Shown here: piece by piece, positions 7,499-37,362 of the stretch
Layout of the letters: every line of letters starts with the position of its first letter
Position numbering within the stretch: the first letter of the stretch is position 1
NCBI GenBank assembly: GCA_964640055.1
Contig: CAZXFH010000004.1
Location: forward strand, 26,016-90,015
Direction of reading: 5' to 3'
DNA from: an uncultured bacterium
Lineage (GTDB): Bacteria > Fidelibacterota > UBA2242 > JAFGTP01
DNA: 64,000 nucleotides
Notes under the pieces: model-generated
What the model was told of the DNA's origin: nothing
What the model saw: the letters and a program-made list of their open reading frames with translations, nothing else
The model's database searches: none
Translations under genes and position numbers: made by a program

Positions 7499-7675
7499 AT
7501 TTTGAAAGCGTTGTAGAACAAGTTTGTAACTTGTTTATCAAATTCCTTCGGTAGAAGAATTTGATTGCTTTGGAGAGGGGTTAATGGGATTTTTGATGGG
7601 CTGTTATCCTGGAAGATAGCCATTTTCCCGGCCGGAAAAACGGCTAAACAATTTGGAAAATTGTTTTACAAGGGG
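7499..7675 (+). repeat. 177-bp direct repeat, copy 1 (REP-like, hairpin-rich), abutting the RAYT start codon
   Basis: Identical base for base to 8334..8510 by manual alignment. Contains GTAG(7513-7516) followed by the palindrome aacaagtt-tgt-aacttgtt (7517-7535). A second GTAG lies at 7551-7554 in cttc-ggta-gaag. Further hairpins are ttttcc-cggcc-ggaaaa and aaacaattt-gga-aaattgttt. Confidence 0.95.
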
Positions 7676-7677
7676 CA

Positions 7678-8322: not shown

Positions 8323-8333
8323 TCTTGGCAGAA

Positions 8334-8510
8334 ATTTTGAAAGCGTTGTAGAACAAGTTTGTAACTTGTTTATCAAATTCCTTCGGTAGAAGAATTTGAT
8401 TGCTTTGGAGAGGGGTTAATGGGATTTTTGATGGGCTGTTATCCTGGAAGATAGCCATTTTCCCGGCCGGAAAAACGGCTAAACAATTTGGAAAATTGTT
8501 TTACAAGGGG
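8334..8510 (+). repeat. 177-bp direct repeat, copy 2
   Basis: Perfect copy of 7499..7675. It begins 11 nt after the RAYT stop codon. Confidence 0.95.
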
Positions 8511-23657: not shown

Positions 23658-24614
23658 ATGGCAAAAAAAACCGTCGAGATCAACGGCGTTGATCCGCTTT
23701 CGGTTCTGGGTGTCAATGATAAAAACCTGAAACTGTTGCGGGAAAATTTCCCTCTGAAAATCCATGCCCGTGGCAATAAAATCACCCTGCAAGGTCCGCA
23801 AGCGCAAATCCAGCAAATGGAGCGCATTCTGGGCGAAATGTTTCTGACCATCAACCAGAAAGGCTATATCGACGAAGCTGATATTAAAACCCTGATCAAG
23901 GTGGAAACCGGCGGCGCGGAACGGAAAGAGACGATCACGCCGGAAACCGTAATCCTGTTCAAAAAAGACGGGGCGATCAAACCGCGTTCGCCCAATCAGG
24001 AAAAATATTATCGCTCCACCCAAAAGAATGATATTGTCTTCTCCATTGGCCCGGCCGGAACCGGTAAAACCTATCTGGCCGTAGCCATTGCCGTCGCTGC
24101 TTTCCGCAACCATGATGTGCGCCGGATTGTCCTGACCCGGCCGGCTGTGGAGGCTGGCGAGAGTCTCGGCTTTCTGCCCGGTGACCTAAGGGAAAAAATC
24201 GAACCCTACCTGGCGCCCCTTTATGACGCGCTCTATGAAATGATGCCGGCCGATAAACTGAAAAACCTGACCGACCAGAAGGTGGTTGAGATCCTGCCCC
24301 TGGCCTATATGCGCGGCCGCACCCTGAACAACGCCTTTGTAATCCTGGACGAAGCCCAGAACACCACCAACATGCAGATGAAGATGTTCCTTACCCGCCT
24401 GGGCGCTAATTCCAAAGCCATTGTGACCGGTGATATCACCCAGATCGATCTGCCCAGCCGGAATAATTCCGGGCTGATCCAGGCCCGCGATATCCTCAGC
24501 GGTATCGAGGGTATTGATTTTATCTATTTTGATGAACGGGATGTGGTGCGCCATCCCCTGGTCAAACAGATCATCCGCGCCTATAACGAGGAAAACCCGC
24601 CGGAGCAGAGCTAA
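23658..24614 (+). CDS. phoH: PhoH-family ATPase
   Basis: 318-aa ORF with Walker [14 protein letters not shown], and ILDEAQNTT and [11 protein letters not shown] motifs. Confidence 0.9.
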
Positions 24615-24624
24615 AGCGTATAAC

Positions 24625-24710
24625 TCATCCCCTTTTAAAAGATTTTCGCAAGCGGGAGATAATGCAAACTCCCCTTCTCTTGCCAAGAGAAGGGGCCGGG
24701 GGATAAGTTC
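24625..24710 (+). repeat. partial (3'-module) copy of the hairpin-dense repeat that brackets the R-M island
   Basis: tcatcccc...cgcaagcgg...ccccttctcttGCCaagagaagggg...ggggataagttc parallels 35255..35340 (tcatccct...gcgcaagcgg...ccccttctcttCACaagagaagggg...ggggatgagttc). This copy is diverged. Confidence 0.7.
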
Positions 24711-24778
24711 AAAACCAACCAGTACCGCAGGGCATTAACCCCCAACTTCAGTTGGGGGCAGCAACAAAACCGAATACC

Positions 24779-24942
24779 CGAGAACGGTTTCAACCGTTTC
24801 CAGCAATAAAGCCCTTAAAAGGGCTCCGAGAGTTAGTTGCTATTATATACCCCCGGTTGAAACCGGGGGCTAATCCTAATCTTTTTTATATGTCATCCCT
24901 ATTTGTCGATTGGCGCAAGCGGAATGTCCTGTTTATTCCCCT
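24779..24942 (+). repeat. 164-bp direct repeat, left copy (A), bounding the type I R-M operon
   Basis: Matches 35142..35305 with 2 mismatches (24802, 24901) by manual alignment. It has three palindromes: aacggtt-tc-aaccgtt (24783-24798), agccctt-aa-aagggct (24810-24825) and cccccggtt-ga-aaccggggg (24850-24869). Weaker similarity extends upstream to about 24733 (attaaccccca). Confidence 0.9.
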
Positions 24943-24967
24943 CAACACGCCTCAGAAGGTCATTCTT

Positions 24968-27900
24968 TCAGTAAGATTTCTGACTGGTGCGCCAGCGCTG
25001 AAAATCGGTAAACAACATATGTAAAAGCGCTTGCTGAAAATCCTTATCATCATTGAATTTTTTATAAAAATCAAAGTTCTCATCAATCATCTGACGGGCA
25101 TGTTCTTTGGCTTTGTCATCAAAGGTGAGTTTGGCGTTTTCCGGAGGATTGACCACCGCACTTTTCTGCACCGCTTCATCCTGATAAAGGCGCTCGCGAA
25201 AGGATTGAAACACTTTATCGCTTTCCTCAAAGTCTGTCCCGAAGCGTTCATTAAGGACTCTGATAATCTCTGAAAGGGATTCCAATTCAGCTGTCCGGCT
25301 GCCGGTTTCACCATCCAGACTATCCGGTTCAATCTCGCCTTCTCCCCGGTCGAGAGAAATCTTGCCCTTGTGCATGCGTTGCAGGCGATAGGAATCCATA
25401 TCCACTTGCTGCGTTACCTCCCGGGGCAATTTGGAAGGCCGCAAGGAGATCAACCGCAGCAAATACTTGCCAAACACATACAATTTTTCCAGATCAACAT
25501 CGGCAAAGGGCAGGATCTGAGCCAGAAAGGCATAGGTGCGCACATATTTGGATAATTTGCGATAGAAATCCCGTCTTTCGTCTTCGGACAGTTCCGCATA
25601 GCGGTCCTTTACCGGATTTAAAATAGCATATAAACGGGCTTGCCGGACTTTTTTGCCGAAATAATGGCTGGCAAACTGATCAATATCCAGATCAGAATAG
25701 AGATGAAAGGCTTGCAGGTCCTCCATCAAATTATAAAGGACATTCGGATCTGTGCTCTCACTGAGAAAGGTTTTTTCATAATAGGGATCAAACGCCGCTT
25801 TAATGGCCGCGGCTTCATTGACAAAATCAAGGACCATGGTATCTTTTTTATGGGGATGGATACGATTCAGCCGGCTCAGGGTTTGTACCGCATTTATACC
25901 GCCTAATTTTTTATCCACATACATGGTATGCAACAGGGGCTCGTCAAAACCGGTCTGGAATTTGTTCGCCACCACCAGAAATCGGTAGGCCTGGTGTTTA
26001 AATTGTTCCCGGGTTTGGGCCTGGGGTATTGCGTTCAATCCGCTCTCGGTAAAGGATTGACCGGTATCCGGGTCCTTGACGGTTCCGGAAAAAGCCACCA
26101 GGGCCTGGTAAGGGTATTGCCGTTCTTTCAGGTATTTTTTCAAGGCCAGAAAAAAGCGCACCGCATGCAGCCGGGAACGGGTCACCACCATGGCTTTGGC
26201 CTGGTGCTGAATGGCCGGCGCCACAAATTTATGAAAATGTTGAACGATAATATCCGTCTTGTTGCCAATTGCATGCTCATGCAGATCCACAAAAGATCTT
26301 AACAGGGCCGACGCCTTCTGGCGGTCATACTGGGGATCATCCGCAATGGCTTTCAACAGTTTGAAATAACTTTTATAAGTGGTGTAATTTTCCAGCACAT
26401 CCAGAATAAAGTGCTCTTCAATGGCCTGCCGCATGGTGTACAGGCTGAAAGGTTCCTGTTTGCCGGAATCAGTGACCGTTCCAAACAGCTCCAACGTCTT
26501 TTTCTTGGGCGTCGCGGTAAAAGCAAAATAGCTCACATTCGGGAGTTGCCCGCGGCTTTTGATCATCTTTTCAATCCGGTCAACCAGGTCTTCTTCGGTC
26601 ACATCATCCTGCTGCGCCGCTTCTTCCAGCGAAACCGGGGCCAAGACCTCATTCATCTGGCGGGTGCTTTCACCGGCCATAGAGGAGTGGGCCTCATCGA
26701 TCAGCACGGCAAATTTCGTTCCTTTGAAATCCCGCATGGCCTCCGAGATCACCGGGAATTTCTGCAGGGTGGTGGTGATGATCTTCTTGCGCTTTTCGAG
26801 CGCATCCTTCAGATCCTGACTGGTATCGTCATCGCCAATCGGCTGGACCACGCCGGGCGTATTCTGAAATTGCAAGACCACATTCCGGAGCTGCTTATCC
26901 AGAATTCTGCGATCAGTGATAACAATAATCGTGTCAAAAACCGGCTCATCCGCGTAGGTATGTAAGCCGGACAGCTGATGGGCCAGCCAGGCAATGGTAT
27001 TGCTCTTGCCGCTGCCGGCACTGTGCTGAATCAGATAGGTCTGACCCACGCCATTTTCCCGGGCATGATTGACCATGCTGCGCACTGCTTGCAGCTGATG
27101 ATAACGCGGGAAGATCAGCTGCTCGGTCTTTTTATCCTGGCCGGTGCGGGCATCATTCTCAGTCACTTCCAAGGTGTGGATAAAGTGCTGGATCAAATTC
27201 AAAATACTGTCCCGGGTCCAGATCTTTTCCCACAGGTAGCTGGTGGCATATTGCTCATCACCCAGAGGTGTGGGATTGCCGGCACCGCCTTCCCGGCCTT
27301 TATTAAAGGGTAAAAAATAGGTCTGGCCTTTCTCTAAATGGGTGGTATAGTAAACCTCATTGGGATCAACCGCAAAATGGGCCAGGCAGCGCTTGAACCG
27401 GAACAGGGGCTCCCGGGGATCCCGGTCGCTCCGGTACTGCGCCATCGCATCTTCCACATTCTGACCGTTCAGCGGATTTTTCAATTCGGCTGTGAAAAGC
27501 GGCAAGCCATTCAAAAAAATTACCAGATCCAGACTCTGTTCGGTCTCCTCGCTGTATTTTAACTGCCGGATCACGGCAAAAGAATTGGCGCGGTACTTCT
27601 TCCGCAAGGCAACATTGAAACCGGTATTGGGCCGGAAATAGGCCAGGTGAAAACGGCAACCCGATATTTTTAAAGGATGGCGCAGACAATGCAGGGTGCC
27701 GCGCCGCTCTATCTGGCGCCTGAGCCGCTGCAAGAGCTGCGAACGGGCATCGCCGGCCGTCACTTTCTGAAACTTACGCCACTCAGCGGGTTGGGTGGCA
27801 CGGATGAAATTCAGGAGCTCTGCCGGCAGTAAACAGAGCGCCCGGTCATAGTCCTGAGTGGTGCGGCGCTGAAAACCACCCGGCTGACCCGCAACCTCAT

Positions 27901-28006
27901 AGGCCCGGAACGGCTCAGTACTGCGCTCCGGAGCCAAGTCCCGCTCCTGCAACAGGGTGGCTTCCAGATCAGTTTCAAAATACTTTTCACGGATTTGCTG
28001 GCTCAT
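24968..28006 (-). CDS. hsdR: type I restriction endonuclease subunit R
   Basis: 1012-aa ORF with Walker A HSAGSGKSNT, DEAH box VLIDEAHSS and helicase motif VI-like FQTGFDEPLL. ATGA overlap with hsdS. Confidence 0.9.
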   Translation of the reverse strand: MSQQIREKYFETDLEATLLQERDLAPERSTEPFRAYEVAGQPGGFQRRTTQDYDRALCLLPAELLNFIRATQPAEWRKFQKVTAGDARSQLLQRLRRQIERRGTLHCLRHPLKISGCRFHLAYFRPNTGFNVALRKKYRANSFAVIRQLKYSEETEQSLDLVIFLNGLPLFTAELKNPLNGQNVEDAMAQYRSDRDPREPLFRFKRCLAHFAVDPNEVYYTTHLEKGQTYFLPFNKGREGGAGNPTPLGDEQYATSYLWEKIWTRDSILNLIQHFIHTLEVTENDARTGQDKKTEQLIFPRYHQLQAVRSMVNHARENGVGQTYLIQHSAGSGKSNTIAWLAHQLSGLHTYADEPVFDTIIVITDRRILDKQLRNVVLQFQNTPGVVQPIGDDDTSQDLKDALEKRKKIITTTLQKFPVISEAMRDFKGTKFAVLIDEAHSSMAGESTRQMNEVLAPVSLEEAAQQDDVTEEDLVDRIEKMIKSRGQLPNVSYFAFTATPKKKTLELFGTVTDSGKQEPFSLYTMRQAIEEHFILDVLENYTTYKSYFKLLKAIADDPQYDRQKASALLRSFVDLHEHAIGNKTDIIVQHFHKFVAPAIQHQAKAMVVTRSRLHAVRFFLALKKYLKERQYPYQALVAFSGTVKDPDTGQSFTESGLNAIPQAQTREQFKHQAYRFLVVANKFQTGFDEPLLHTMYVDKKLGGINAVQTLSRLNRIHPHKKDTMVLDFVNEAAAIKAAFDPYYEKTFLSESTDPNVLYNLMEDLQAFHLYSDLDIDQFASHYFGKKVRQARLYAILNPVKDRYAELSEDERRDFYRKLSKYVRTYAFLAQILPFADVDLEKLYVFGKYLLRLISLRPSKLPREVTQQVDMDSYRLQRMHKGKISLDRGEGEIEPDSLDGETGSRTAELESLSEIIRVLNERFGTDFEESDKVFQSFRERLYQDEAVQKSAVVNPPENAKLTFDDKAKEHARQMIDENFDFYKKFNDDKDFQQALLHMLFTDFQRWRTSQKSY

Positions 28007-29319
28007 GCACTAACCTCCTCAACAGGTACTTCATCCCGCACATCTATTTTACCGGTAACGGTGGCCGAAATCAAGGCCTGGCGGTATTCTTTTAAATGCT
28101 GTATGCTGTTTTCTATTTGAATAATTGTGTGATCAATCACCGCAGTCTTCCGGTCGAGGAAGGTGGCGATGGCGCGTTGTTCGGGGAGGGGAGGTAAAAT
28201 TACTGGAATACCTCCCATAACGCTTTGATTTAATTTGTCACGAGTTGAACCCCAGATATAATCTTTATAATTAACCACATTTAAATACGATTTAAGATAA
28301 TCAGTATCGATATTTTTATTAGGTAGAAGCACATGAACATGGTTATTTACCCATACTTTTCCAATCACCTTAAAAGCAACGTCTTTAAATTTCTCGAAAA
28401 AAGGGGCTCCATCTTCACCGAGCAGTATTAATTCATTATCGAATAAATAGTCATTGATATAATCTACAATTCCATTCGCACCCCAGTATGGGATGTTGCC
28501 TTTAATCTGTGATCGCTCCTCTGAATTAAGTGGGATACGCTTACTATCTAGACACTTTGTATAATATCTAAGTCTTGAGCGTTTCCAATAGCTTGGTATT
28601 TCCCCAATCCACTCAATTCCCGAGGATTTCATGGGCGCATCCGGGTCCAGGCCTTTGGTCACCGCTTTGGTGATCAGCGCCTGGCGCTTTTCCTTGAGCC
28701 GCGCGATGAGCTGCTCTTTCTTCTCAATCAGCTGGTCAATGGCGGCGGTCTTGCGGTCGAGGAAGGCAGCGATGGCGCGTTGTTCGGGGAGGGGAGGGAG
28801 AGAAATATCGATGCTTCGTACGTCATAAGTACTTAAACCATATCGGGTAATACCATTGGCTCTCAAACCAAATTCTTCTCGGTATTTTTTAGATTGAAGC
28901 AGTCTAAAAAGATAGCCTCCGAGTATTTCTCTTCCCTTGCATTTAATTAGTGATAAATGATAACCACATACTAGATTATCTTTGATCTCTTTTACCAATG
29001 CAGGAACTGCAATATCATCCGCTATTTCCGAATCCTTTGTGATGATAATGTCATCAAGTTCTAACTTAAACTTTTCTATCTGACTATTGGTAGCAGTCGC
29101 TTTCATAAATTCAATATCATTAGTAATGAACTCATTATAATAGACATCTGTATAATTGCATAAATCGACTTCTATTTCGTTTTCATCCGTTTTTTTATTC
29201 ACATTCGACGGATTTGTATTCGAAACAAATTTTAACTTTTTTATACTCCATTTTTCCGGTACTAATCCAATCCACTCAATTCCCGACTCTTTCAGTTCAT
29301 TTTGTTTACGGTAGCGCAT
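28003..29319 (-). CDS. hsdS: type I restriction-modification specificity subunit S (two TRDs)
   Basis: 438-aa ORF with a duplicated conserved region: LPPLPEQRAIAAFLDRKTAAIDQLI and LPPLPEQRAIATFLDRKTAVIDHTI. The N-terminal SGIEWIG motif is also duplicated. The AT-rich TRDs alternate with GC-rich conserved helices. Confidence 0.9.
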   Translation of the reverse strand: MRYRKQNELKESGIEWIGLVPEKWSIKKLKFVSNTNPSNVNKKTDENEIEVDLCNYTDVYYNEFITNDIEFMKATATNSQIEKFKLELDDIIITKDSEIADDIAVPALVKEIKDNLVCGYHLSLIKCKGREILGGYLFRLLQSKKYREEFGLRANGITRYGLSTYDVRSIDISLPPLPEQRAIAAFLDRKTAAIDQLIEKKEQLIARLKEKRQALITKAVTKGLDPDAPMKSSGIEWIGEIPSYWKRSRLRYYTKCLDSKRIPLNSEERSQIKGNIPYWGANGIVDYINDYLFDNELILLGEDGAPFFEKFKDVAFKVIGKVWVNNHVHVLLPNKNIDTDYLKSYLNVVNYKDYIWGSTRDKLNQSVMGGIPVILPPLPEQRAIATFLDRKTAVIDHTIIQIENSIQHLKEYRQALISATVTGKIDVRDEVPVEEVSA

Positions 29320-29473
29320 GTTAATATTGGGTTGCTTTTTTTGTCTGCACCATGATTTTCCCGATTGGCATGATTACCTGGTTTTTGGGTGATTTTGCTC
29401 TAGTTGTTAAAATCATGTAATATCCTAAATCATAGTGCAGACGATTTGCGGGTGAGTGGTAGCATATTAACAA

Positions 29474-31297
29474 TCATCCTACTATTTCTTCAAATTTTTC
29501 ATGGTTCCAAATCTTCTTACAAATTTCATAATACAATTGTTGCCGTTTTTTCATTTCATCTGATTTAAATGTTTCATACGGTTCAAATGGAAGGCCATAG
29601 TATTCTTTCATCTTTAAAAATCCTGGATTCTTTTCATAGCATAATGGATTTAGCGATTTCGCTAATAGATTTTGGCCAAAATAGTGTTCCCTTTTAATTC
29701 TATATTCTCTATCGCTGTAACTTTGGTTAAACTTACGCGGTAACAGGAGTAGGCCTCCGAAGTTATTCCGGAATTCACGGAACTCATACTCGTTATCAAA
29801 CTCATCAGTGTGTCGTTGGTACTTATCCGCCCATATATGCTCAATTTGGTATATATTTTTCTTTACATTTAAATATCCTGAAATATCAGAGGGCATATCC
29901 GATTCCGTCTCAATAAAATGGGTCATGCGTGCTAAAATATAGAACAAATACTTTTTCGTAAAATTATTCATCCTAACTGTTAGAATTCCATCAATTTGAT
30001 AGGGATTGGTTTTTATCCATTCTAACAATATATCAGCTAAATTTGAAATACTTTTATCTCGTAATCTTCTCCCTAATTGAAACATGCTATAATACATATC
30101 TGAATAGGAAACACTTTTGTAATTCACGACTCTCTGCATAAAATAATAGTCCATAAAATATGTAATTAATCTGATCTTGGTTTCAGTTGTGGACTGAGGA
30201 TCACTCGGGTCTAAGGAAGAAAGGACTAGTTGATATTGAAGGGTAAAATTATTGTTCGCATTGAAAAAGACTTTATCATATTTATCAGTCAATTCAATTG
30301 ACCATTGTCTCAAATTTTTGTACCAGCGTAGATAAAACTCATAATCCTGTTCAAGAAATCGTTCGAAATCTGCTGAACTATTCAACCCAATTTTGTTATT
30401 ATTATCTCTGATCCATTTGTGGTATCGAGCAATTTCCTCAAAATCTTTATTCTCCGCTCCGCGTTTCCTTTCTCTTATCGATTCCGCATATTTTGCACGA
30501 AACCAGGCACGGAAAAAATCCGAATCCTCTTCTTTTGAAAATTTTCGCAAGTCATGAATACTTATTTTCCAAGCCTCATTTAATCGATCACGAACACTTT
30601 CTTGCGAAATATTCGCCAACAGATATCCCTTAAGCATATCAGTTGAAGTAAGTTGCTGCCCACGATCATTCATCGTTTCAAATATCAGATATGCATCTTC
30701 ATCAGAATATGCGGTTATCTGCACGAGATCGACGTTATCCTTCAACCAATCAATAAAATATGGTAGTGCTCCATTCTTAATATCTTCCGGAAATTCTCGT
30801 TCAATATCCTGATATCGGTTCCAAATATTTTGATTGGACTCAGATTCATCAGAAACATCAAAATCATTTCCTTCATATATTGCTTTGATTACTTTTGTCC
30901 GGTCCTCGATGTCGATATTGAATGTTTTAGTTCCATATTTTTCAGAGAAGATTAAATCATTTATATCAACTTTCATGTCATGAGATTTCTGTAAATGGTT
31001 TAAATATATCAGCAGTAGAGTTAGAGAAGTCAATCGTTGCTGTCCATCAACAATATATTTTTGACCTCCTCGTTCACATACAATTATTGCCCCGAGATAG
31101 TAACGAGTATATTTCTCGACTGCGCTTCTCCCATCTCCTTTTTGATATGACTCAAAAAATTTGCCCGAAAAATCATCTAACAGTTCCTGAATATGCTTTT
31201 CTTCCCACCGATACTCTCGTTGGTAATAATCGATAGTATACTTCGTTTTGGTCAACAATTCACTAACCGTTTTCTCTTTGCCTTGGATTTTATACAT
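29474..31297 (-). CDS. DUF262-DUF1524 (GmrSD-like) putative modification-dependent nuclease
   Basis: 607-aa ORF. The N-terminus has YYQREYRWEEKHI and DGQQRLTSL (ParB-like DUF262 NTPase motifs). The C-terminus has QIEHIWADKY...LLLLPRKFNQS (His-Me/DUF1524-like). The DNA is markedly AT-rich. Confidence 0.8.
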   Translation of the reverse strand: MYKIQGKEKTVSELLTKTKYTIDYYQREYRWEEKHIQELLDDFSGKFFESYQKGDGRSAVEKYTRYYLGAIIVCERGGQKYIVDGQQRLTSLTLLLIYLNHLQKSHDMKVDINDLIFSEKYGTKTFNIDIEDRTKVIKAIYEGNDFDVSDESESNQNIWNRYQDIEREFPEDIKNGALPYFIDWLKDNVDLVQITAYSDEDAYLIFETMNDRGQQLTSTDMLKGYLLANISQESVRDRLNEAWKISIHDLRKFSKEEDSDFFRAWFRAKYAESIRERKRGAENKDFEEIARYHKWIRDNNNKIGLNSSADFERFLEQDYEFYLRWYKNLRQWSIELTDKYDKVFFNANNNFTLQYQLVLSSLDPSDPQSTTETKIRLITYFMDYYFMQRVVNYKSVSYSDMYYSMFQLGRRLRDKSISNLADILLEWIKTNPYQIDGILTVRMNNFTKKYLFYILARMTHFIETESDMPSDISGYLNVKKNIYQIEHIWADKYQRHTDEFDNEYEFREFRNNFGGLLLLPRKFNQSYSDREYRIKREHYFGQNLLAKSLNPLCYEKNPGFLKMKEYYGLPFEPYETFKSDEMKKRQQLYYEICKKIWNHEKFEEIVG

Positions 31298-31357
31298 AAA
31301 AAAACTCCTGATTCTTGACTTGGGACAGACTTGGGACGATGTTGTCCCCGGTTTAAT

Positions 31358-32926
31358 TCACAATTTTTCCAAATACTTTTTGCCGATCTCCGTAATGGTG
31401 TATTTCTGCTCCGGATGTCTCGGCGCGTCGGGATACAGATACTCAATCAGACCGTAATCCATAAGATTATTCACCATTCGGCGAAAATGGCCTGTTCGTT
31501 TTGTCAAACCCATCTCACGCAGCAATTCATTGAGCGAACTTGGACCGCTGTCCAGTGTTTGAAGAATTCCCGTTTCGGTAGGATTCAAGGAGTCCGGGAG
31601 AGCTTGGTCCCCAGCTTGGTCCCTAGCTTGGCCCCCAGCTTGGACCCCCACTCGAGCTTCCTCATGGATTGGGATGTGTGCAAGGAAGTAACTTGCCTTA
31701 TCATCCGTTTCAAAATGCGGTTCCGGAGATCCGTTGTTCTCCATTGCAGCGTAAATTTTCGGAAAGCCGGTTGCCCGTCCCTCTGTGAGACGCAGTTCCT
31801 TCAGAAATTCGCCAATACGACGATTTCTGTACGTTCTTGCTACTATGCGTCTCTCCTGGAGCTTCTTATTATCCACAGGGGGAAGGGGGCCCGGAAAACT
31901 CAACACTTCAATCTGATCTTGACGGATATTCACTTCTATGGGATCATGATGATCATAACTCCGGTGATAAACCGCATTGGCGATCACTTCTTCGATTGCA
32001 GCGTAGGGATAATTGTAGAATCTTTCTACCTCCGCTTGATTGGGAACTTTGCGCACCTGCTCGGCGATAACGTTAGTCTCGATATAATGCAGTGCATCTC
32101 TTAATTGATGGTGTATCGGCCCCGTGAAAGATTTTTCCGAGAACTCGTCGCCAACGTCATCACGATATACAACAACATCGATTTGTGCCCCAGGGAAAAA
32201 CTGTTCCGGATGTTCATTGAACATAAGCAATCCCACATTAACCGGCTGCAGATTCTCCTCTGCGCCCTTTGCAATCTTCATCCGCTGACACAGATCTTTG
32301 AATGCAATGGAATCCACTTCCTCATAAAGTTGGCTATCCACTTCCGACAGAAAGCTCTTCACAAGACTTTTGTCTATATCATCCAGTGAGGCTTGGTGGT
32401 TGACCCTGTCATCATAGGGTACATTGGCAGCAAGCTCATGTAATTGTTGTTTTTCCTCTCTATCCGCCTGCACCGTTGAACTATATCTTCTAATCCATTG
32501 TCTTCGTCCTGTCGATTTATCACCTAACGACACCGGTGCATCATAGGGACGGTTATCACCACCGGGACACCAAAGAACAAGGATATGTTCTCCTTGGTAT
32601 TCAGTGAAATGAGTTAGGGCATAATAATTTGGCAGAATCTTTTTGCTAAGTTGAATGAGATCTTTCTGGATAGAATCGAATTGATTGACATTTAAGCCTT
32701 CTGGGGGCAAAACAGGTTGCCCATCTTTATCCTCTTCTATCCCTATGATAATGTACCCACCGCCAAGGTTATTAATGTCATTTCCAAAAGCGCACATGGT
32801 GTGCATTACAGGCTGCGGATTCCATCCTCTTTTAAACTCTTTGCGCTCGTCTTCCACAATGGAGCCGGTTATCAATTCTTCGATATTTATGGGAAGTGCC
32901 ATGGTATTAGTCGGAAATAACCTCAC
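31358..32926 (-). CDS. AlbA_2 (Schlafen-like) + HATPase_c_4-like + C-terminal wHTH protein (divergent AAA / putative DNA-binding ATPase)
   Basis: 522-aa ORF with EDERKEFKRGWNP (AlbA_2), AIEEVIANAVYHRSY...IEVLSFPGPLPP and RNRRIGEFLKELRLTEGRATGFPKI. A C-terminal winged-helix-like segment follows. It overlaps the hsdM stop by 20 nt. Confidence 0.75.
   Translation of the reverse strand: MRLFPTNTMALPINIEELITGSIVEDERKEFKRGWNPQPVMHTMCAFGNDINNLGGGYIIIGIEEDKDGQPVLPPEGLNVNQFDSIQKDLIQLSKKILPNYYALTHFTEYQGEHILVLWCPGGDNRPYDAPVSLGDKSTGRRQWIRRYSSTVQADREEKQQLHELAANVPYDDRVNHQASLDDIDKSLVKSFLSEVDSQLYEEVDSIAFKDLCQRMKIAKGAEENLQPVNVGLLMFNEHPEQFFPGAQIDVVVYRDDVGDEFSEKSFTGPIHHQLRDALHYIETNVIAEQVRKVPNQAEVERFYNYPYAAIEEVIANAVYHRSYDHHDPIEVNIRQDQIEVLSFPGPLPPVDNKKLQERRIVARTYRNRRIGEFLKELRLTEGRATGFPKIYAAMENNGSPEPHFETDDKASYFLAHIPIHEEARVGVQAGGQARDQAGDQALPDSLNPTETGILQTLDSGPSSLNELLREMGLTKRTGHFRRMVNNLMDYGLIEYLYPDAPRHPEQKYTITEIGKKYLEKL
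31601..31648 (-). repeat. in-frame 12-bp tandem repeat x4 inside the AlbA_2-family gene
   Basis: Plus strand reads agcttggtcccc agcttggtccct agcttggccccc agcttggacccc. It encodes (V/G/R)(G/D)QA x4, i.e. VQAGGQARDQAGDQA, in the linker before the wHTH. Confidence 0.9.
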
Positions 32927-34949
32927 TGAGCAGTTCCTGAATCTCCGATTCCAGGGATTTTATTTCACCTTCAATCTCCTCGATGGGACGCGGCGGCTCA
33001 TAGGTATAGAAATGGCGGGTAAAGGGAATCTCGTAGCCCACACGCCCCACTTTACCATCCTTGTGGTCGCAATATTCGGGATCAATCCAGGCATCGGGTA
33101 CATGGGGCTTGACTTCCCGTTCAAAATAGACATAGACATCTTCATTCAGGGGCACATTCTCATAATCACGTAAATCCGTGTCCGGTTCGGGCTGGCCCTC
33201 TTTATCCCGCACGATATCGGCTTCCTCATCCTGCTCACCAATGGCGCGGACAACAGCATTGATCAGACTCTGCTTGGGTTTGTAATCCTGTTCCCGACAG
33301 CGCTCCTTGAAGTGTTCCAGGAAATCTTTCCGGTTGGTAAACAGTTCATCCTGCATGGCGTGCAGGATATTGAGAATGAGTTCCTGCTCCTGTTTCCCTG
33401 TGCTAATCTCCTGTTCCTTGGCTTCGGGGTTCTTCTTCCGACTTTTAGCCAGATTCTGGAATACACTTTCCGCTTGCAAGCGCTCGATCCGTTCCGGAAC
33501 AGCATGGAAGTTTAACCGCAGCGGCTGCTCTACTCTGAGCTTGCGGAAGCCGAGTTCTTCATTATCAAAAATCTTGACTTTTTCACCCTCGGTAAACCCG
33601 GAATAGAGCACGGCGATTTCCTGAATCTGTTCATCCGAGATCTCACGGCGCTTATCCCCTAAGCTTTTGCGCATGGGCACCCAGATATCCGTAGCGTCGA
33701 TCAATTGCACTTTGCCTTTCCGTGGGGCTGATTTCCGATTGGTCAAAAACCATATATAGGTGGCGATTCCGGTATTATAAAACAGTTGCTCCGGCAGGGC
33801 GATAATAGCTTCCAGCCAATCATTTTCCAGAATCCAGCGCCGGATCTCACTTTCACCGCTGCCGGCATCACCGGTGAAGAGAGGCGACCCGTTATGAATC
33901 ACAGCGATTCGACTGCCGCCGCCAGCCTCTTGCAGGGGTGCCCGATGGGCCAGCATATCCAGGGTAAACAGCAGTTGCCCGTCACTGCTGCGGGGTAATC
34001 CCGCTCCAAAGCGTCCGGCATAGCCCCTCTGATATTCATCCTCAACAGCCTGTTTATCGCGTTTCCAATCCTTGCCATAGGGTGGGTTGGCCAGGATATA
34101 ATTGAAGGTGTCACCGGTGTGCGCTGGATCCGCAAGCGTACTGCCCTGGAAGATATTCTCGGCATCGCCGCCACCACCGGTTTTCAGAAAGAAATCGCTC
34201 TTACAGACAGCATAGGTTTCAGGGTTCAGCTCCTGGCCATAGACGCGCACATCTGCCTGGGGGTTATAATCATGAATCTTTTGCTTGGTGATGCTGAGCA
34301 TGCCGCCTGTCCCGCAGGCTGGATCGTAAACCTTGATGACCTTACCGGCTTCGTGTAAGCCTTCGATATCAGGTGACAGCAGGATTTCCGCCATCAGATG
34401 AATCACTTCCCGCGGTGTAAAGTGTTCACCGGGATTTTCATTGGTGGCTTCATTGAATTTGCGGATCAATTCCTCAAAAATATAACCCATTTCCGTATTA
34501 CTAACCGCATCAGGGTGGAGGTCGATTTCGTTGAATCGCTTGAGTACCAGATATACCAACTTATGATCTTCCAGCTTGCGGATCGTGTTTTCAAAATCAA
34601 AGTTATAGAGCACTTCCCGCATATTCTCGGAAAAAGCATTGATATAGCGCATCAAATTATTGGCGATATGGTCAGGATCATTGAGCAATTTTTCGAAATC
34701 ATACCGGGAAGTATTATAAAATGCATAGCCCGCTGCCTGACGCAATAAATCGTCCAGATCATCTAGTTTGTCTTTATACTGATGATAGGTTTTCAGAACA
34801 TTTGCTTTGGTCGGTTTTAAAACACTATCGACCCGCCGGAGTACGGTAAAAGGTAAGATGACATCCTGGTATTTACCGCGTTTGAAGCTATCGCGGATTA
34901 AGTCGGCAATCGACCAGATAAAATTGACTTTGTTGCTGAAATTCTGCAT
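32907..34949 (-). CDS. hsdM: type I restriction-modification methyltransferase subunit M (N6-adenine)
   Basis: 680-aa ORF with HsdM_N-like FIWSIADLIRDSFKRGKYQDVILPFTVLRR, SAM motif VYDPACGTGGML, and catalytic ILANPPYG. Confidence 0.9.
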   Translation of the reverse strand: MQNFSNKVNFIWSIADLIRDSFKRGKYQDVILPFTVLRRVDSVLKPTKANVLKTYHQYKDKLDDLDDLLRQAAGYAFYNTSRYDFEKLLNDPDHIANNLMRYINAFSENMREVLYNFDFENTIRKLEDHKLVYLVLKRFNEIDLHPDAVSNTEMGYIFEELIRKFNEATNENPGEHFTPREVIHLMAEILLSPDIEGLHEAGKVIKVYDPACGTGGMLSITKQKIHDYNPQADVRVYGQELNPETYAVCKSDFFLKTGGGGDAENIFQGSTLADPAHTGDTFNYILANPPYGKDWKRDKQAVEDEYQRGYAGRFGAGLPRSSDGQLLFTLDMLAHRAPLQEAGGGSRIAVIHNGSPLFTGDAGSGESEIRRWILENDWLEAIIALPEQLFYNTGIATYIWFLTNRKSAPRKGKVQLIDATDIWVPMRKSLGDKRREISDEQIQEIAVLYSGFTEGEKVKIFDNEELGFRKLRVEQPLRLNFHAVPERIERLQAESVFQNLAKSRKKNPEAKEQEISTGKQEQELILNILHAMQDELFTNRKDFLEHFKERCREQDYKPKQSLINAVVRAIGEQDEEADIVRDKEGQPEPDTDLRDYENVPLNEDVYVYFEREVKPHVPDAWIDPEYCDHKDGKVGRVGYEIPFTRHFYTYEPPRPIEEIEGEIKSLESEIQELLSEVISD

Positions 34950-35106
34950 AACTACCTAATTGTTACAATTTAGAGCTAATACAAATATGGTCATCAGTGA
35001 AAATTTCCATCTTTAAATTCAATTTAGCCATATTTTCTTTATATCTAAATAGAATTTTAGCCTGTTTTTAAAATCCTGACAGGATAATGATCCTGTATTA
35101 GAGCGG

Positions 35107-35340
35107 ATTAACCCCCAGGAATCAGCAAGACAACGCAAGAACGAGAACGGTTTCAACCGTTTCCGGCAATAAAGCCCTTAAAAGGGCTCCGAGAGTTAGT
35201 TGCTATTATATACCCCCGGTTGAAACCGGGGGCTAATCCTAATCTTTTTTATATGTCATCCCTTTTTGTCGATTGGCGCAAGCGGAATGTCCTGTTTATT
35301 CCCCTTCTCTTCACAAGAGAAGGGGCTAGGGGATGAGTTC
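35107..35340 (+). repeat. right, complete copy (B) of the hairpin-dense repeat (164-bp core 35142..35305 plus an 11-bp-stem hairpin 35301..35325)
   Basis: The core equals copy A with 2 mismatches. It continues into ccccttctctt-cac-aagagaagggg and ggggatgagttc, which copy A lacks. Possible closing helix tcatccc(35255-35261)/gggatga(35330-35336). Confidence 0.85.
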
Positions 35341-35350
35341 CATCTTCCCG

Positions 35351-36088
35351 CTACTCCCGCAGGGCGGCTTTGGTGAACCGGTAAGCCGGGATATCCACAT
35401 TGAATGCAATAGATTCAATGATATATTCCGTACCTTCGCCCCGAGACAACATATCCTTGAAGACCATCTTTTTCGGATACCAGCGGTTTTGCTGGCGCAT
35501 GACTTCCTTAACCAGCGTGCTTTTCAGGAGCTTTCCGCTCTTGGCATACCGGTTTTCCTGCAAAGCGATCATCCGCTCCTGGTCGACCCACATCTTGCGG
35601 GAATGATAAGCAATATCCTCTTTTTTGGCGGTCAGCGCCAGCACCCAGCAGAGGCGGCCGTTCAGAGTGTCCTCACCCGCCACTTCCGCGCTATACATAT
35701 GCTCCAGTTTGGGATCTTCCATCAGGTCTTCATAGGAGAGGTCGGAGCCCATCACCGACTGGCGCAACATATGGCCGGCAATCCGGATGGTACGGTCGGT
35801 TTGGGGCGAATACATCCAGAGCTGGTCTGCCAGCTTCAGCATTTTGGTGCCGGCTTCCCGCGGTGGTGACAGGTATTCGGTAAAGGATTTTTCCGTACCC
35901 TGGATCCAGGATTTGGCGGTGATGGACCGGCTGGCACGCCGTCCGTGGATGATCATGGTGGTGGTTGCCACCATGTTCTCCGCCGAAAGATTCTGGTCGA
36001 TTTGCTGCAAGATCTCGCTCCCGGATGGAGCCTGCGCGATTCCAAGCAGGGGAATAAAAATGATAAGAGCTAACATTAACTGTTTCAT
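35351..36088 (-). CDS. LolA-like outer membrane lipoprotein-sorting protein family
   Basis: 245-aa ORF with signal peptide MKQLMLALIIFIPLLGIAQA. The SEILQQID...TMIIHGRRASRSITAKSW...LWMYSPQTDRTIRI pattern is recalled from the LolA_like family. ATGA overlap with the upstream permease. Confidence 0.6.
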   Translation of the reverse strand: MKQLMLALIIFIPLLGIAQAPSGSEILQQIDQNLSAENMVATTTMIIHGRRASRSITAKSWIQGTEKSFTEYLSPPREAGTKMLKLADQLWMYSPQTDRTIRIAGHMLRQSVMGSDLSYEDLMEDPKLEHMYSAEVAGEDTLNGRLCWVLALTAKKEDIAYHSRKMWVDQERMIALQENRYAKSGKLLKSTLVKEVMRQQNRWYPKKMVFKDMLSRGEGTEYIIESIAFNVDIPAYRFTKAALRE

Positions 36089-37362
36089 TGCACTTCCAAT
36101 TCTTTAAAGAGTTGCGCGGTTTCGCGTTTATAAATCCCCAGGCCGGCGATCATGGACCCCAGGGTGGTCGCCAGGAACCCCGGGAAAAACCCGATGTAAT
36201 AGCTGGTAACAGTCACCCGGGCCCGGATGACATTGGGCATCAGCATGGTGGAACCGCTCATCATATCCTCCATGTTGACGCCGTGGGCCTGCATATAATA
36301 AGAGGCGGCCAGTCCCAGGGCCGTGCCGATTACCGAGCCGATAAAGCCGATCATCACCGCTTCGCCGATCATGGTGCGGTAGATGTGTCCCTTGTCCTCG
36401 CCGATGGCGAGCCGCACCCCGTATTCACCATAGCGGCGCAGGGTGCCCATCAAACCGGTATTCCACAGAACAATTGACATGACAACCACAAAGATAGCCA
36501 CAATGATCCCGGAGAGGTAATCCACATACTGGAGCATACTGCCCAGATCATTCTGCTCGCTGAGCTTTAATATAGTCGGGGTGAATTCGCTATCATCGGA
36601 TTGGGAAAGGGATGCAAATTCCTGAACAACGGCGCTGGCCCGCTTTTCCTCATATCGCCCATCCTTGAAAAACCCCAGCAATTCGCCAGCGGCGTCTTCC
36701 ATATTCAGTGCTGCCTGAATCCCACTGATATCAGCGATGACACCGCCGCGATCCATGGCCTGCACACCGAAATGGACTGTGCCCACTATCTTGAAATTCT
36801 GCATGGCCATCCCGCCGTACATGCCGGAGCTGATCAGCGTGGCTTGGTTGCCCAGCTCTATTTCCAGCTGCTGGGCGAAATTCTCGCTGACCAGGATTTC
36901 AAAGGACTCTTGGGGCAATCGCCCCTGCACCAGAGCACCCCGGATATCCAGTCGCTCCACTTCTCTACTGGACGGATGCAGCAGATCAACGGCTATACCG
37001 GTGGCCGGACCCTGGGAGCGGGTCTCGCCCTGTTCATTCGGAATATCAATCAAGCCACCAAACATCATACGGGGAGTCCACTGCAGTTCCGGGAATTGCT
37101 GCGCGAGTTTCCGGCGCAATTCCCCGACATTAAGCAGAGCCAAATCATTGGGTACCTGTTCCATCTGGGCTTGATAGGCTTTAGTGACGACCTTGACATG
37201 CCCGGTATAAAAATTGGCATTTGTACTAATGATATCGGTCATTTCACCTTTCATGAAGCTGTAGAGAAAAACCGTGATAAAGACACCCATGGCAGTAACA
37301 ATCAGCGGAAAAAGCGAGCGGGAACGATCCCGGATCAAGCCGGTAAAAAGAAACCAGATCAT
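36085..37362 (-). CDS. ABC transporter permease, FtsX/MacB-like (pair 1, 425 aa)
   Basis: N-terminal TM, large periplasmic domain and C-terminal FtsX-type 3-TM bundle. Same length as 38650..39927 and colinear with it. Both end in LFKELEVQ. Confidence 0.8.
   Translation of the reverse strand: MIWFLFTGLIRDRSRSLFPLIVTAMGVFITVFLYSFMKGEMTDIISTNANFYTGHVKVVTKAYQAQMEQVPNDLALLNVGELRRKLAQQFPELQWTPRMMFGGLIDIPNEQGETRSQGPATGIAVDLLHPSSREVERLDIRGALVQGRLPQESFEILVSENFAQQLEIELGNQATLISSGMYGGMAMQNFKIVGTVHFGVQAMDRGGVIADISGIQAALNMEDAAGELLGFFKDGRYEEKRASAVVQEFASLSQSDDSEFTPTILKLSEQNDLGSMLQYVDYLSGIIVAIFVVVMSIVLWNTGLMGTLRRYGEYGVRLAIGEDKGHIYRTMIGEAVMIGFIGSVIGTALGLAASYYMQAHGVNMEDMMSGSTMLMPNVIRARVTVTSYYIGFFPGFLATTLGSMIAGLGIYKRETAQLFKELEVQ

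What the first reader, a model, noticed from the sequence alone, without database searches (positions are those of the whole stretch)
24625..35340. Complete type I R-M operon bracketed by 164-bp near-identical direct repeats, with no integrase or transposase: a candidate repeat-mediated mobile R-M unit
Repeat A (24779-24942) and repeat B (35142-35305) differ at 2 positions. They enclose only the 5-gene operon plus its AT-rich promoter spacer. The hsdR stop is 25 nt from A.

Copy A is cut off exactly where copy B continues into an 11-bp-stem hairpin. That pattern is expected if a circular molecule carrying one repeat copy recombined with a chromosomal copy, or if insertion duplicated a long target. 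The flanks (phoH and the LolA-like/ABC operon) look like core genes.

Comparative work has described R-M units flanked by long direct repeats (insertion with long target duplication). This would be a clean example, and it predicts excision to a single repeat copy.
Basis: partly seen in the sequence, partly recalled or inferred. Interest (0 to 1): 0.7.

Follow-up and report, generated by a model that had tools for sequence, protein, structure and literature searches.

The report
Defence operon flanked by direct repeats
A 10-kb restriction-modification defence operon in an uncultured marine-type bacterium (Marinimicrobia) sits between two near-identical 164-bp copies of hairpin-rich intergenic DNA. 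This layout is already known for restriction systems that inserted with a long duplication of their target, and nothing here shows that it still moves.

Summary
Positions 24779-24942 and 35142-35305 are 164-nt direct repeats with 2 mismatches. They enclose only hsdM, a Schlafen/AlbA_2-ATPase gene, GmrSD, hsdS and hsdR, plus an AT-rich leader.

- Homology continues about 45 nt left of the repeat at much lower identity.
- The first ~95 nt of the repeat is a decayed REPIN-like REP doublet. Its right hairpin is identical to that of a GTAG-tagged REP family common in unrelated metagenomes.
- The last 50 nt belong to an ~84-88-nt hairpin element that has another copy beside phoH.
- The repeat ends 5 nt inside that element's hairpin stem.

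Best reading (about 0.5): the operon entered the phoH/lolA-like intergenic region with a long target duplication, the class described by Nobusato 2000 and Furuta 2010. One end was probably anchored by imperfect homology and the other joined illegitimately in a hairpin.

No empty site could be found. The closest relatives are only 74-79% identical in protein and are not syntenic. The genome-wide copy number of the repeat is unknown. Mobility is therefore inferred, not shown. I rate it a new member of a known kind, of modest interest.

The parts
23658..24614 (+). phoH, the left flanking core gene, convergent with the operon
   Evidence: Pfam PhoH, E = 1.8e-95. The identical gene lies on Logan contig L001, which ends 83 nt after the stop codon.
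24622..24709 (+). Copy 1 of an ~84-88-nt hairpin element. Its ends are AACTCATCCCC and GGGGATAAGTT, and the inner hairpin has an 11-12-bp stem (24671-24695).
   Evidence: 75% identical to 35260-35340 (family D2). Terminal motifs, inner hairpin, fold.
24729..24770 (+). 'A-left': the chromosomal side of the low-identity homology that continues left of the repeat. It includes hairpin H0 (24739-24758).
   Evidence: Local alignment to 35102-35134 scores 12.5 against 7.6 +/- 1.3 in shuffles, 5 of 2000. Alignment. Nothing further left.
24779..24942 (+). Direct repeat copy A (164 nt). 24779-24873 is the REPIN-like doublet: degenerate left REP within 24780-24801, inner hairpin 24810-24825, right REP 24850-24869 plus CTAA. 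24893-24942 is the first 50 nt of a truncated third copy of the hairpin element.
24943..24967 (.). 25-nt junction between copy A and the hsdR stop codon. This is the hsdR-side end of the inserted DNA and has no homology to the other side.
24968..28006 (-). hsdR, the type I restriction subunit (1012 aa, full length)
   Evidence: Pfam HSDR_N, SWI2_SNF2, ResIII and T1R_D3-like. PADLOC REase_I. C-terminus compared with homologues. Codon usage is host-like, z = -1.2.
28003..29319 (-). hsdS, the specificity subunit, with an internal 65-nt repeat (28130-28194 / 28733-28797)
   Evidence: Pfam Methylase_S, two stretches. PADLOC Specificity_I. Repeat. GC 0.40.
29474..31297 (-). GmrSD-type (DUF262/DUF1524) type IV restriction gene: low-GC cargo in the variable slot of the operon
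   Evidence: Pfam GmrSD_N and GmrSD_C. PADLOC HEC-06, mREase_IV and SspE-like. GC 0.34 and codon-usage z = +2.2.
31358..32926 (-). Schlafen/AlbA_2 + HATPase_c_4 + Fic-like_C gene, conserved next to hsdM in this operon family
   Evidence: Pfam. The same gene follows hsdM in L212, L214-L217.
32907..34949 (-). hsdM, the type I methyltransferase
   Evidence: Pfam N6_Mtase and HsdM_N. PADLOC MTase_I, E = 1e-275. The nearest database homologue is 79% identical.
34950..35101 (-). AT-rich leader of the operon (26.5% GC over 34950-35096). It holds a sigma-70-like site (35082-35054, minus strand) and a triple palindrome ATCCTG-A-CAGGAT-AATG-ATCCTG (35073-35095). It is unique to the insert.
35102..35134 (+). 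'B-left': the inner, insert-side counterpart of A-left. It is diverged, and the 3' half of hairpin H0 is missing.
35142..35305 (+). Direct repeat copy B (164 nt). It continues without a break into the rest of the hairpin element.
35256..35339 (+). Complete copy 2 of the hairpin element (outer stem TCATCCC/GGGATGA, inner hairpin 35301-35325). The repeat boundary at 35305 lies 5 nt inside the inner stem.
35351..36088 (-). LolA-like lipoprotein-sorting gene, the last gene of a TetR-ABC-FtsX operon and the right flanking gene
   Evidence: Pfam LolA_like, E = 2e-55. Context in L002.

Best explanation
Segment 24943-35141 (10,199 bp) is a horizontally acquired defence operon. It holds a type I R-M system (hsdM, hsdS, hsdR), a conserved Schlafen/AlbA_2-ATPase gene and a swapped-in low-GC GmrSD type IV nuclease.

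The operon entered the short intergenic region between the convergent genes phoH and lolA-like in a Marinimicrobia (Fidelibacterota) genome. That region already held an old REPIN-like REP doublet and an ~84-88-nt hairpin element. The insertion left the 164 bp between its two joints duplicated. [quoted passage not shown]

Most likely route (inferred):
- Linear incoming DNA was anchored at its hsdM-upstream end by imperfect homology (B-left to A-left, a shared hairpin-module type).
- Its hsdR end was joined illegitimately inside the stem of the element's hairpin.
- A Campbell-type crossover with a circle that carried its own copy of the segment would give the same product.

Consequences (inferred, not shown):
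- RecA-dependent recombination between the copies can delete the operon as a 10,363-bp circle, leaving phoH, one repeat and lolA-like, with a 373-bp intergenic region.
- It can also re-insert the operon or amplify it.

What is shown: the gene content, the repeat, its composite anatomy, and the mobility of this operon family among phyla. What is inferred: the insertion event, its mechanism, and any present-day mobility.
For: - Repeat and its exclusive content.
- Collapsing the repeat restores an intact hairpin element and a 373-bp convergent intergenic region.
- Both copies share the same decayed left REP and the same altered tags. Identity runs 69 nt past the REPIN's right tag into a different element. 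The two copies therefore come from duplication of one chromosomal segment, not from two REPIN transpositions.
- The right boundary is sharp, with no homology beyond it. On the left, diverged collinear homology lies on the inside of copy B. This is what a homology anchor at one end plus an illegitimate joint at the other would give.
- The operon family sits in unrelated contexts elsewhere: an integrase + CBASS island in Fodinibius, between integrase and ISL3 fragments in L212, and other contexts in L214-L218.
- HsdM is 76% identical across phyla where PhoH is ~51% identical.
- The locus is a synteny breakpoint in the nearest relatives.
- No mobility gene, tRNA or Rfam family is involved.
- Published cases have repeats of 46-423 bp. 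They include a type I system interrupted by a regulator and an ATP-binding gene (PMC2853133).
Against: - No empty site, excision junction or circle junction was seen. The databases searched hold no strain or species closer than 74-79% protein identity.
- The copy number of the repeat outside this 64 kb is unknown.
- The repeat is made of REP/REPIN-type modules, which are typically dispersed repeats.
- In another genome, the 78%-identical hsdM is bracketed by repeats that are plainly dispersed.
- hsdM and hsdR have host-like GC and codon usage. The operon is therefore either old here or came from a close relative.
- The 99% to ~70% step in identity is not what a simple one-step duplication predicts.
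- The left edge of the repeat coincides, within 0-3 nt, with the REPIN's left end. This hints at an element boundary rather than a random staggered cut.
Confidence: 0.5

Rival explanations
1. The two copies are members of a dispersed REP/REPIN-BIME-like repeat family that sits at the 3' ends of transcription units. Copy B lies downstream of the lolA-like operon. Copy A lies downstream of hsdR and phoH. The operon lies between them by chance, or arrived by recombination between such copies. Their near-identity reflects recent spread or homogenisation of the family, not a target duplication.
For: - The right REP hairpin is 20/20 identical to that of a GTAG-tagged REP family. In the metagenome hits it is followed by CTAC in 64 of 154 occurrences, and it forms inverted doublets in 17 loci with a similar inner hairpin and spacing.
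- REPs lie mainly downstream of genes, between unidirectional or convergent ORFs (PMC3733652).
- The genome encodes a RAYT flanked by two 99%-identical REPINs.
- The left edge of identity equals the REPIN's left end.
- In L214/L215 the homologous hsdM is bracketed by 158-nt, 96%-identical repeats. These belong to multi-copy units seen in three intergenic regions within 10 kb.
Against: - In 64 kb, with roughly 40 genes, the unit and its GC-rich hairpins occur only at these two places.
- The left REP and both tags are decayed identically in both copies.
- Identity extends 69 nt beyond the REPIN into part of another element and stops inside its hairpin. This is not expected for RAYT-mediated copying.
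- The window's RAYT is flanked by a different REP type.
Confidence: 0.22
2. The operon is an old resident and is not itself the mobile unit. An older duplication of about 215 bp has been partly re-homogenised by gene conversion, with the edges eroding. Alternatively, only the 164-nt segment was copied later from the lolA-like side to the hsdR side by a hairpin-dependent event. The repeats then say little about R-M mobility.
For: - Identity is mosaic: 2 differences in 164 nt, against about 12 differences plus a 9-nt gap in the adjoining ~45 nt (p = 5e-8).
- hsdM and hsdR are indistinguishable from host genes in GC3 and codon usage.
- Both edges of the identical tract lie at the feet of hairpins.
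Against: - Gene conversion needs flanking identity that the ~70% region does not offer.
- There is no eroded homology on the right side.
- The nearest relatives lack both the operon and the synteny, so long residence cannot be shown.
- The sequences just 5' of the two copies differ (ATACC vs AAGAA). This argues against IS200-type targeted insertion.
Confidence: 0.15
3. Assembly artefact. The chromosome holds a single copy (phoH, repeat, lolA-like), and a separate circular or amplified molecule carries the operon plus one copy. The assembler threaded the cycle into the chromosome.
For: Logan 31-mer contigs support the four junction halves but cannot link them across the repeat. The last mismatch is 41 nt from the edge.
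Against: - The two copies differ at two positions and were phased by the assembler of the source contig.
- A 10.4-kb circle with no replication gene is unlikely to persist at chromosome-like abundance in several samples.
- Even if true, this would be the excised form that the main model predicts.
Confidence: 0.04

Closest known systems
R-M insertion with long target duplication (Nobusato et al. 2000, Gene 259:99; Furuta et al. 2010, NAR 38:2428, PMC2853133). The nearest single case is the Haemophilus influenzae 86-028NP type I system NTHI0188-0193.
   Same: - A complete R-M unit under 20 kb with no integrase or transposase.
- Direct repeats of host intergenic DNA that abut gene ends.
- A type I operon interrupted by regulator-like and ATP-binding genes.
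- Repeat length within the published range of 46-423 bp, at comparable identity.
   Different: - The published cases were defined by an empty site in a sister genome. None is available here.
- Here the homology extends past the repeat at low identity.
- The duplicated segment is itself made of REP-type hairpin modules.
- The phylum (Marinimicrobia/Fidelibacterota) is new for this class.
REP/REPIN elements and their RAYT transposases (Bertels & Rainey 2011, PMC3337134; Di Nocera et al. 2013, PMC3733652)
   Same: - The first ~95 nt of the repeat is an inverted REP doublet with an inner hairpin.
- Its right hairpin is identical to that of a GTAG-tagged family.
- It lies downstream of genes.
- The two copies are near-identical.
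- A RAYT gene flanked by REPINs lies 16.6 kb away.
   Different: - The tags are altered (CTAA rather than CTAC, and the left tag is lost), and the left outer stem is decayed.
- The identical tract is 69 nt longer than the doublet.
- Only two copies are seen.
- The local RAYT is flanked by another REP type.
Homology-facilitated illegitimate recombination during natural transformation (de Vries & Wackernagel 2002; Prudhomme et al. 2002). Cited from my own knowledge and not checked in the paper library.
   Same: One end of the foreign DNA is held by a short, imperfect homologous anchor. The other end is joined without homology. The joints fall within a few hundred bp of each other.
   Different: The described events usually delete recipient DNA rather than duplicate it. 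Competence of this organism is unknown. The resemblance is a lead, not a test.
Type I R-M operons in integrase-borne defence islands, for example the Fodinibius sp. SL11 locus (L217)
   Same: The operon backbone is the same: hsdM, AlbA_2/HATPase_c_4, a variable slot, hsdS, hsdR, at 76% HsdM identity. Defence modules there are also separated by repeated ~205-nt intergenic blocks.
   Different: That island carries a tyrosine integrase, AlpA and a D5 primase. The window has none of these.

Membership tests
R-M insertion with long target duplication (criteria of Furuta et al. 2010) | Both R and M gene homologues lie inside the inserted sequence | tested here: met
   hsdR, hsdS and hsdM, plus GmrSD.
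R-M insertion with long target duplication (criteria of Furuta et al. 2010) | Inserted sequence shorter than 20 kb | tested here: met
   10,199 bp between the copies.
R-M insertion with long target duplication (criteria of Furuta et al. 2010) | Flanking direct repeat longer than 30 bp, at high identity | tested here: met
   164 nt, 162/164 identical.
R-M insertion with long target duplication (criteria of Furuta et al. 2010) | No linked mobility gene; repeat not a tRNA or site-specific attachment site | tested here: met
   No integrase or transposase in the unit or in ~10 kb on either side. No tRNA, tmRNA or Rfam family. The nearest mobility gene is a RAYT 16.6 kb away.
R-M insertion with long target duplication (criteria of Furuta et al. 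2010) | Repeat is low-copy (unique) in the genome | tested here: inconclusive
   Only two copies in the 64 kb. The metagenome scan returned only unrelated contigs. The ORF-translation search found nothing.
R-M insertion with long target duplication (criteria of Furuta et al. 2010) | A related genome shows an empty site where both copies align to one sequence | not testable with these tools
   The nearest PhoH, LolA-like and HsdM relatives are 74-79% identical, and the locus is not syntenic in them. Identical proteins occur only in Logan runs with the same arrangement.
REP/REPIN (RAYT-mobilised) element | [quoted passage not shown] | tested here: met
   The cores CGGTTTCAACCG (24785-24796) and CGGTTGAAACCG (24854-24865) are reverse complements. 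The inner hairpin and spacing match the metagenomic doublets.
REP/REPIN (RAYT-mobilised) element | Conserved GTAG/CTAC tag next to each hairpin | tested here: not met
   The right tag is CTAA, one mismatch from CTAC. The left tag position reads CCCG.
REP/REPIN (RAYT-mobilised) element | Many dispersed copies and a cognate RAYT flanked by the same REP | tested here: inconclusive
   Two copies in 64 kb. The RAYT present (NF047646, 95 bits against a cut-off of 80) is flanked by a different REP, GTAG-AACAAGTTTGTAACTTGTT. The rest of the genome was not seen.
Type I restriction-modification system | HsdM, HsdS with two target-recognition domains, and HsdR with a nuclease N-terminus plus an SF2 motor | tested here: met
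   Activity was not tested.
Integrase-mediated genomic island | Tyrosine or serine recombinase with att repeats, often at a tRNA | tested here: not met
   No recombinase and no tRNA.

The most novel reading that the evidence does not exclude
Both ends of the identical tract lie at the feet of REP-type hairpins. The left end is at the REPIN's left edge, and the right end is 5 nt into the stem of the hairpin element. The genome also encodes a RAYT.

Suppose a hairpin-directed nuclease makes the two staggered cuts. This could be a RAYT/HUH enzyme or a structure-specific nuclease acting on extruded hairpins. 'Long target duplication' would then have a concrete mechanism, and REP/REPIN clusters would act as integrase-free landing pads for defence operons.

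A related hairpin-plus-GGGGAT motif, within multi-copy repeat units, lies upstream and downstream of the 78%-identical hsdM in a second genome. This fits the idea only weakly.
Probability: 0.07. Interest if true: 0.7.

Novelty: new member of a known kind. Interest (0 to 1): 0.3.

Why it matters
If the insertion reading is right, this extends the integrase-free 'long target duplication' route of R-M spread to an uncultured, globally abundant marine phylum.

It would also give a case whose joints can be read at base resolution. One joint lies next to a diverged homologous anchor. The other lies inside a hairpin stem. Those details bear on the mechanism, which remains unknown (Furuta et al. 2010 only suggested that DNA double-strand breakage is involved).

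The arrangement predicts simple loss, re-insertion and amplification of a three-system defence operon by host recombination.

If the dispersed-repeat reading is right instead, the finding is ordinary.

Tried and rejected
- **Empty-site search.** The PhoH scan of GTDB genomes gave a best hit of 74%, and the downstream genes differ. LolA-like homologues reach at most 79% and have other neighbours, such as a DUF433/DUF5615 pair or 1.4 kb of hairpin-rich non-coding DNA. No empty site could be found.
- **Exact-protein look-ups** of PhoH, LolA-like, HsdR and HsdM returned only Logan contigs with the same arrangement, broken at the repeat.
This was a poor pattern choice for finding relatives, although it revealed the REP family.
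- **Open-frame translation search.** I translated the frame that stays open across the repeat and searched the protein database for miscalled ORFs at other copies. Nothing was found, which is uninformative.
- **Viral contigs.** No copy of the repeat was found, and only one copy of the hairpin + GGGGATGAGTT motif.
- **Rfam.** Only a sub-threshold Acido-Lenti-1 hit on the hairpin (21 bits against a gathering score of 37). Nothing reached gathering thresholds, in the window or in four metagenomic doublet loci.
- **hsdM upstream regions** of five operons share no conserved sequence that would mark a unit end. The hsdR downstream sequences also differ.
- **Plasmid database.** HsdM is below 50% identical to anything there.
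- **Composite transposon idea** (REPIN, cargo, REPIN, moved by a HUH enzyme) rejected. It does not explain the 69 identical nt beyond the right REP tag of copy A.
- **tRNA or att-site origin** rejected.
- **Terminator scan.** The hairpins lack U-tracts, so they are not canonical intrinsic terminators.


Full report
**1. Observation**

The repeat is real. Positions 24779-24942 and 35142-35305 are 164 nt long, in direct orientation and 10,363 nt apart. They differ only at 24802/35165 (A/G) and 24901/35264 (A/T). A 22-nt piece of the repeat occurs nowhere else in the 64 kb and is not expected by chance.

Five minus-strand genes lie between the copies:
- hsdM (34949-32907)
- an AlbA_2/Schlafen + HATPase_c_4 + Fic-like_C gene (32926-31358)
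- a GmrSD DUF262/DUF1524 nuclease (31297-29474)
- hsdS (29319-28003)
- hsdR (28006-24968)

hsdM overlaps the next gene by 20 nt, and hsdS overlaps hsdR by 4 nt. The hsdR stop is 25 nt from copy A. A 192-nt leader separates hsdM from copy B. Its 34950-35096 part is 26.5% GC.

The flanks are phoH on one side and a LolA-like gene on the other. The LolA-like gene closes a TetR-ABC-FtsX operon. There is no integrase, transposase, tRNA or Rfam family at the locus.

**2.

(a) *The homology does not stop at the left edge of the repeat.* Positions 24729-24770 align collinearly with 35102-35134. They share ATTAACCCCCA and CAGCAA, with a 9-nt gap that removes the 3' half of hairpin H0.
- The alignment scores 12.5 against 7.6 +/- 1.3 in shuffles, and 5 of 2000 shuffles reach it.
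- The mismatch density differs from that of the repeat at p = 5e-8.
- Nothing aligns further left, and nothing aligns on the right.

(b) *The last 50 nt of the repeat are the start of an ~84-88-nt structured element.* It has an outer stem TCATCCC/GGGATGA and an inner hairpin with an 11-bp stem.
- Copy B runs on into the complete element (35256-35339).
- Copy A is cut 5 nt inside the inner stem (CCCCT|TCTCTT).
- A third copy, 75% identical, lies 8 nt after the phoH stop (24622-24709).

(c) *The first ~95 nt of the repeat are a REPIN-like doublet.* The 20-nt hairpin CCCCCGGTTGAAACCGGGGG was used for the one metagenome scan.
- In those contigs the hairpin is followed by CTAC in 64 of 154 occurrences.
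- In 17 loci it forms inverted doublets, GTAG-hairpin ... hairpin-CTAC, 148-241 nt long.
- These doublets have an inner GCCCGC/GCGGGC hairpin at the same spacing as the inner hairpin of the repeat.
- This is the GTAG-tagged REP/REPIN architecture of the literature (PMC3733652, PMC3337134).

In the window the right REP is intact but tagged CTAA. The left REP keeps the 12-nt core and has lost its outer stem and tag. The left edge of the 99% identity falls within 0-3 nt of the doublet's left end.

Strong GC-rich hairpins of this kind occur only at the two flanks of the operon in the whole window.

**3. Who and where**

The organism is a member of Marinimicrobia/Fidelibacterota.
- The best PhoH matches in GTDB species representatives are 73-74% identical, in Neomarinimicrobiota MAGs.
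- The best LolA-like match is 79%.
- The best HsdM match is 79%.

In those relatives neither the gene downstream of phoH nor the gene downstream of lolA-like is conserved. One relative has a DUF433/DUF5615 pair there. Another has 1.4 kb of hairpin-rich non-coding DNA. The locus is therefore a synteny breakpoint, and no empty site can be obtained.

Identical proteins occur only on short Logan contigs from SRR7048218, SRR7048219 and SRR7048228. Their ends fall exactly where a 31-mer graph must break at a two-copy repeat: 30 nt into the repeat from either unique side, or 30 nt past the first mismatch. This confirms the four half-junctions in independent data but cannot link them across 164 nt.

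**4. Is the operon foreign?**

On an evolutionary scale, yes. HsdM is 76% identical in Fodinibius sp. SL11 (Balneolaceae), whose PhoH is ~51% identical.

The backbone hsdM, AlbA_2/HATPase_c_4, a variable slot, hsdS, hsdR recurs in unrelated settings:
- an integrase/AlpA/D5-primase island next to CBASS (L217)
- between an integrase fragment and an ISL3 fragment (L212)
- other contexts (L214-L218)

The slot holds different cargo in each: GmrSD here, RelE/MqsA plus PDDEXK_3 in L212, DUF4268 in L217, PDDEXK_3 in L214-L216.

Within the window, hsdM and hsdR are indistinguishable from host genes in GC3 and codon usage (z = -1.2). GmrSD is clearly foreign (GC 0.34, z = +2.2), and hsdS has low GC. The backbone is therefore either long resident or came from a compositionally similar donor. 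The cargo is a later swap.

**5. How the repeat most likely arose**

Three features must be explained together:
- a sharp right edge inside a hairpin stem, with no homology beyond it
- 99% identity over a composite of a decayed REPIN plus 69 further nt
- a step down to ~70% identity on the left, with the diverged copy on the inside of copy B

Two independent REPIN transpositions do not fit. Both copies share the same decayed REP and altered tags, and the identity overruns the doublet.

The simplest account is a segmental duplication tied to the arrival of the operon. This is the class defined by Nobusato et al. (2000) and Furuta et al. (2010). In that class, complete R-M units under 20 kb with no mobility genes are flanked by 46-423-bp repeats of the target, often spanning gene ends. 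One case is a type I operon interrupted by regulator-like and ATP-binding genes.

The mosaic left edge is explained if the hsdM-upstream end of the incoming DNA carried a related hairpin module (B-left). That module paired imperfectly with A-left. The hsdR end was joined without homology in the hairpin at 24942/24943. The 164 bp between the two joints then appear on both sides.

Homology between donor and recipient would end at the REPIN if the donor's module lacked one. That would account for the coincidence of the left edge with the REPIN's left end. A Campbell-type crossover with a circle carrying its own version of the segment gives the same product.

All of this is inference. Confidence in the insertion-with-duplication class is about 0.5.

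**6. Rivals**

(i) *Dispersed REP/BIME-like clusters at operon ends (0.22).*
- For: the REPIN nature of the repeat; the typical REP location downstream of genes; and L214/L215, where the 78%-identical hsdM is bracketed by 158-nt, 96%-identical repeats that are plainly multi-copy.
- Against: there are no further copies in 64 kb, and the identity overruns the doublet by 69 nt.

(ii) *Old resident operon with later gene conversion or copying of the 164-nt segment (0.15).*
- For: the mosaic identity and the host-like codon usage.
- Against: the conversion tract has no flanking identity to start from, and there is no erosion on the right.

(iii) *Assembly artefact or episome (0.04).* Logan unitigs cannot exclude it, but two phased SNPs and the lack of any replication function make it unlikely.

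**7. Comparison and novelty**

The structure works like a long-target-duplication R-M insertion, and it is probably one. It meets four of that class's criteria (R and M genes in the insert, insert size, repeat length, no mobility gene or tRNA origin).

The two criteria that define the published cases are unmet or untestable here. These are an empty site in a sister genome and uniqueness of the repeat in the genome.

It is not an active REPIN: the tags test was not met. It is not an integrase island.

I rate it a new member of a known kind, in a new phylum. Its joints are informative, but mobility has not been demonstrated. Interest is 0.3.

The most novel reading still open is hairpin-directed cutting that turns REP clusters into landing pads for defence operons. 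I give it about 0.07.

Noticed in passing
window 7494-8510: A 214-aa REP-associated tyrosine transposase (RAYT) lies at 7678-8322 (NCBIfam NF047646, 95 bits against a cut-off of 80; Pfam Y1_Tnp). It has low GC (0.39) and atypical codon usage. It is flanked 2 nt and 6 nt from its ends by two 182-nt, 99%-identical direct repeats (7494-7675 and 8329-8510) with clean edges. Each repeat is itself a REPIN: GTAG-AACAAGTTTGTAACTTGTT ... AAACAATTTGGAAAATTGTTT-TAC. In two unrelated loci (L111, L102) the RAYT is flanked by inverted REPs instead.
   Followed up: partly
window 24622-24709 and 35256-35339; L214 2833-2889, 8991-9047, 9699-9755; L215/L216; L051 1549-1696; L220 5746-5784: A hairpin CCCCTTCTCTT-N3-AAGAGAAGGGG followed 2-7 nt later by GGGGAT(G/A)AGTT recurs in intergenic DNA of other FCB-group contigs. 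In one it forms an inverted pair. It also occurs in one IMG/VR viral contig. It is not in Rfam and its function is unknown. In L214/L215 it is part of 450-700-nt multi-copy units.
   Followed up: partly
L092-L211 (metagenome loci); e.g. L123 4155-4302: GTAG-CCCCCGGTTTCAACCGGGGG ... CCCCCGGTTGAAACCGGGGG-CTAC doublets of 148-241 nt, with inner GCCCGC/GCGGGC hairpins, form a widespread REPIN family in mostly 58-66% GC soil-type contigs. Tandem arrays of the same hairpin with a 69-72-nt period occur in L111 (10159-10463) and L139. In L111 the units between hairpins are near-identical, so that array is not CRISPR-like.
   Followed up: partly
window 29320-31357; L212 13996-15295; L217 13946-14863; L214 7478-7858: The slot between the AlbA_2/HATPase_c_4 gene and hsdS holds different cargo in each relative of this operon: GmrSD here (34% GC), RelE/MqsA plus PDDEXK_3, DUF4268, or PDDEXK_3 alone. 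It looks like a hotspot for embedded defence or toxin-antitoxin (TA) genes.
   Followed up: partly
L217 3921-4127 and 9369-9576 (Fodinibius sp. SL11): A CBASS operon (SMODS, E1/E2, JAB, SAVED) is bracketed by ~205-nt direct repeats at 76-94% identity. The second copy lies just upstream of the homologous hsdM, so defence modules in that integrase island are separated by repeated intergenic blocks.
   Followed up: no
window 35073-35095: A triple palindrome, ATCCTG-A-CAGGAT-AATG-ATCCTG, overlaps the -35 of the only sigma-70-like site upstream of hsdM (35082-35054, minus strand). It is a candidate operator, possibly for the wHTH-bearing AlbA_2/HATPase_c_4 protein.
   Followed up: no
window 36085-38531 vs 38650-41096: The pair of FtsX-type permease genes (425 aa + 390 aa) is tandemly duplicated with a period of 2565 nt, at 71-83% DNA identity.
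   Followed up: no
window 31601-31648; L212 13518-13622; L217 13510-13638: An in-frame 12-nt x 4 tandem repeat (AGCTTGGTCCCC, encoding a xQAG-type linker) lies in the AlbA_2/HATPase_c_4 gene. Homologues carry different short tandem repeats at the same place.
   Followed up: no
L087 3588-5026: In a Marinimicrobia relative (LolA-like 79% identical), the gene is followed by 1.4 kb with no called gene. That stretch is full of short GC-rich hairpins of the same style as those at the window's locus.
   Followed up: no
L001 end (= window 24697): The Logan phoH contig stops right after the hairpin of element copy 1. No repeat in the window explains this break. It suggests a length polymorphism in the following G-run, or another copy of that hairpin elsewhere in the sample.
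   Followed up: no
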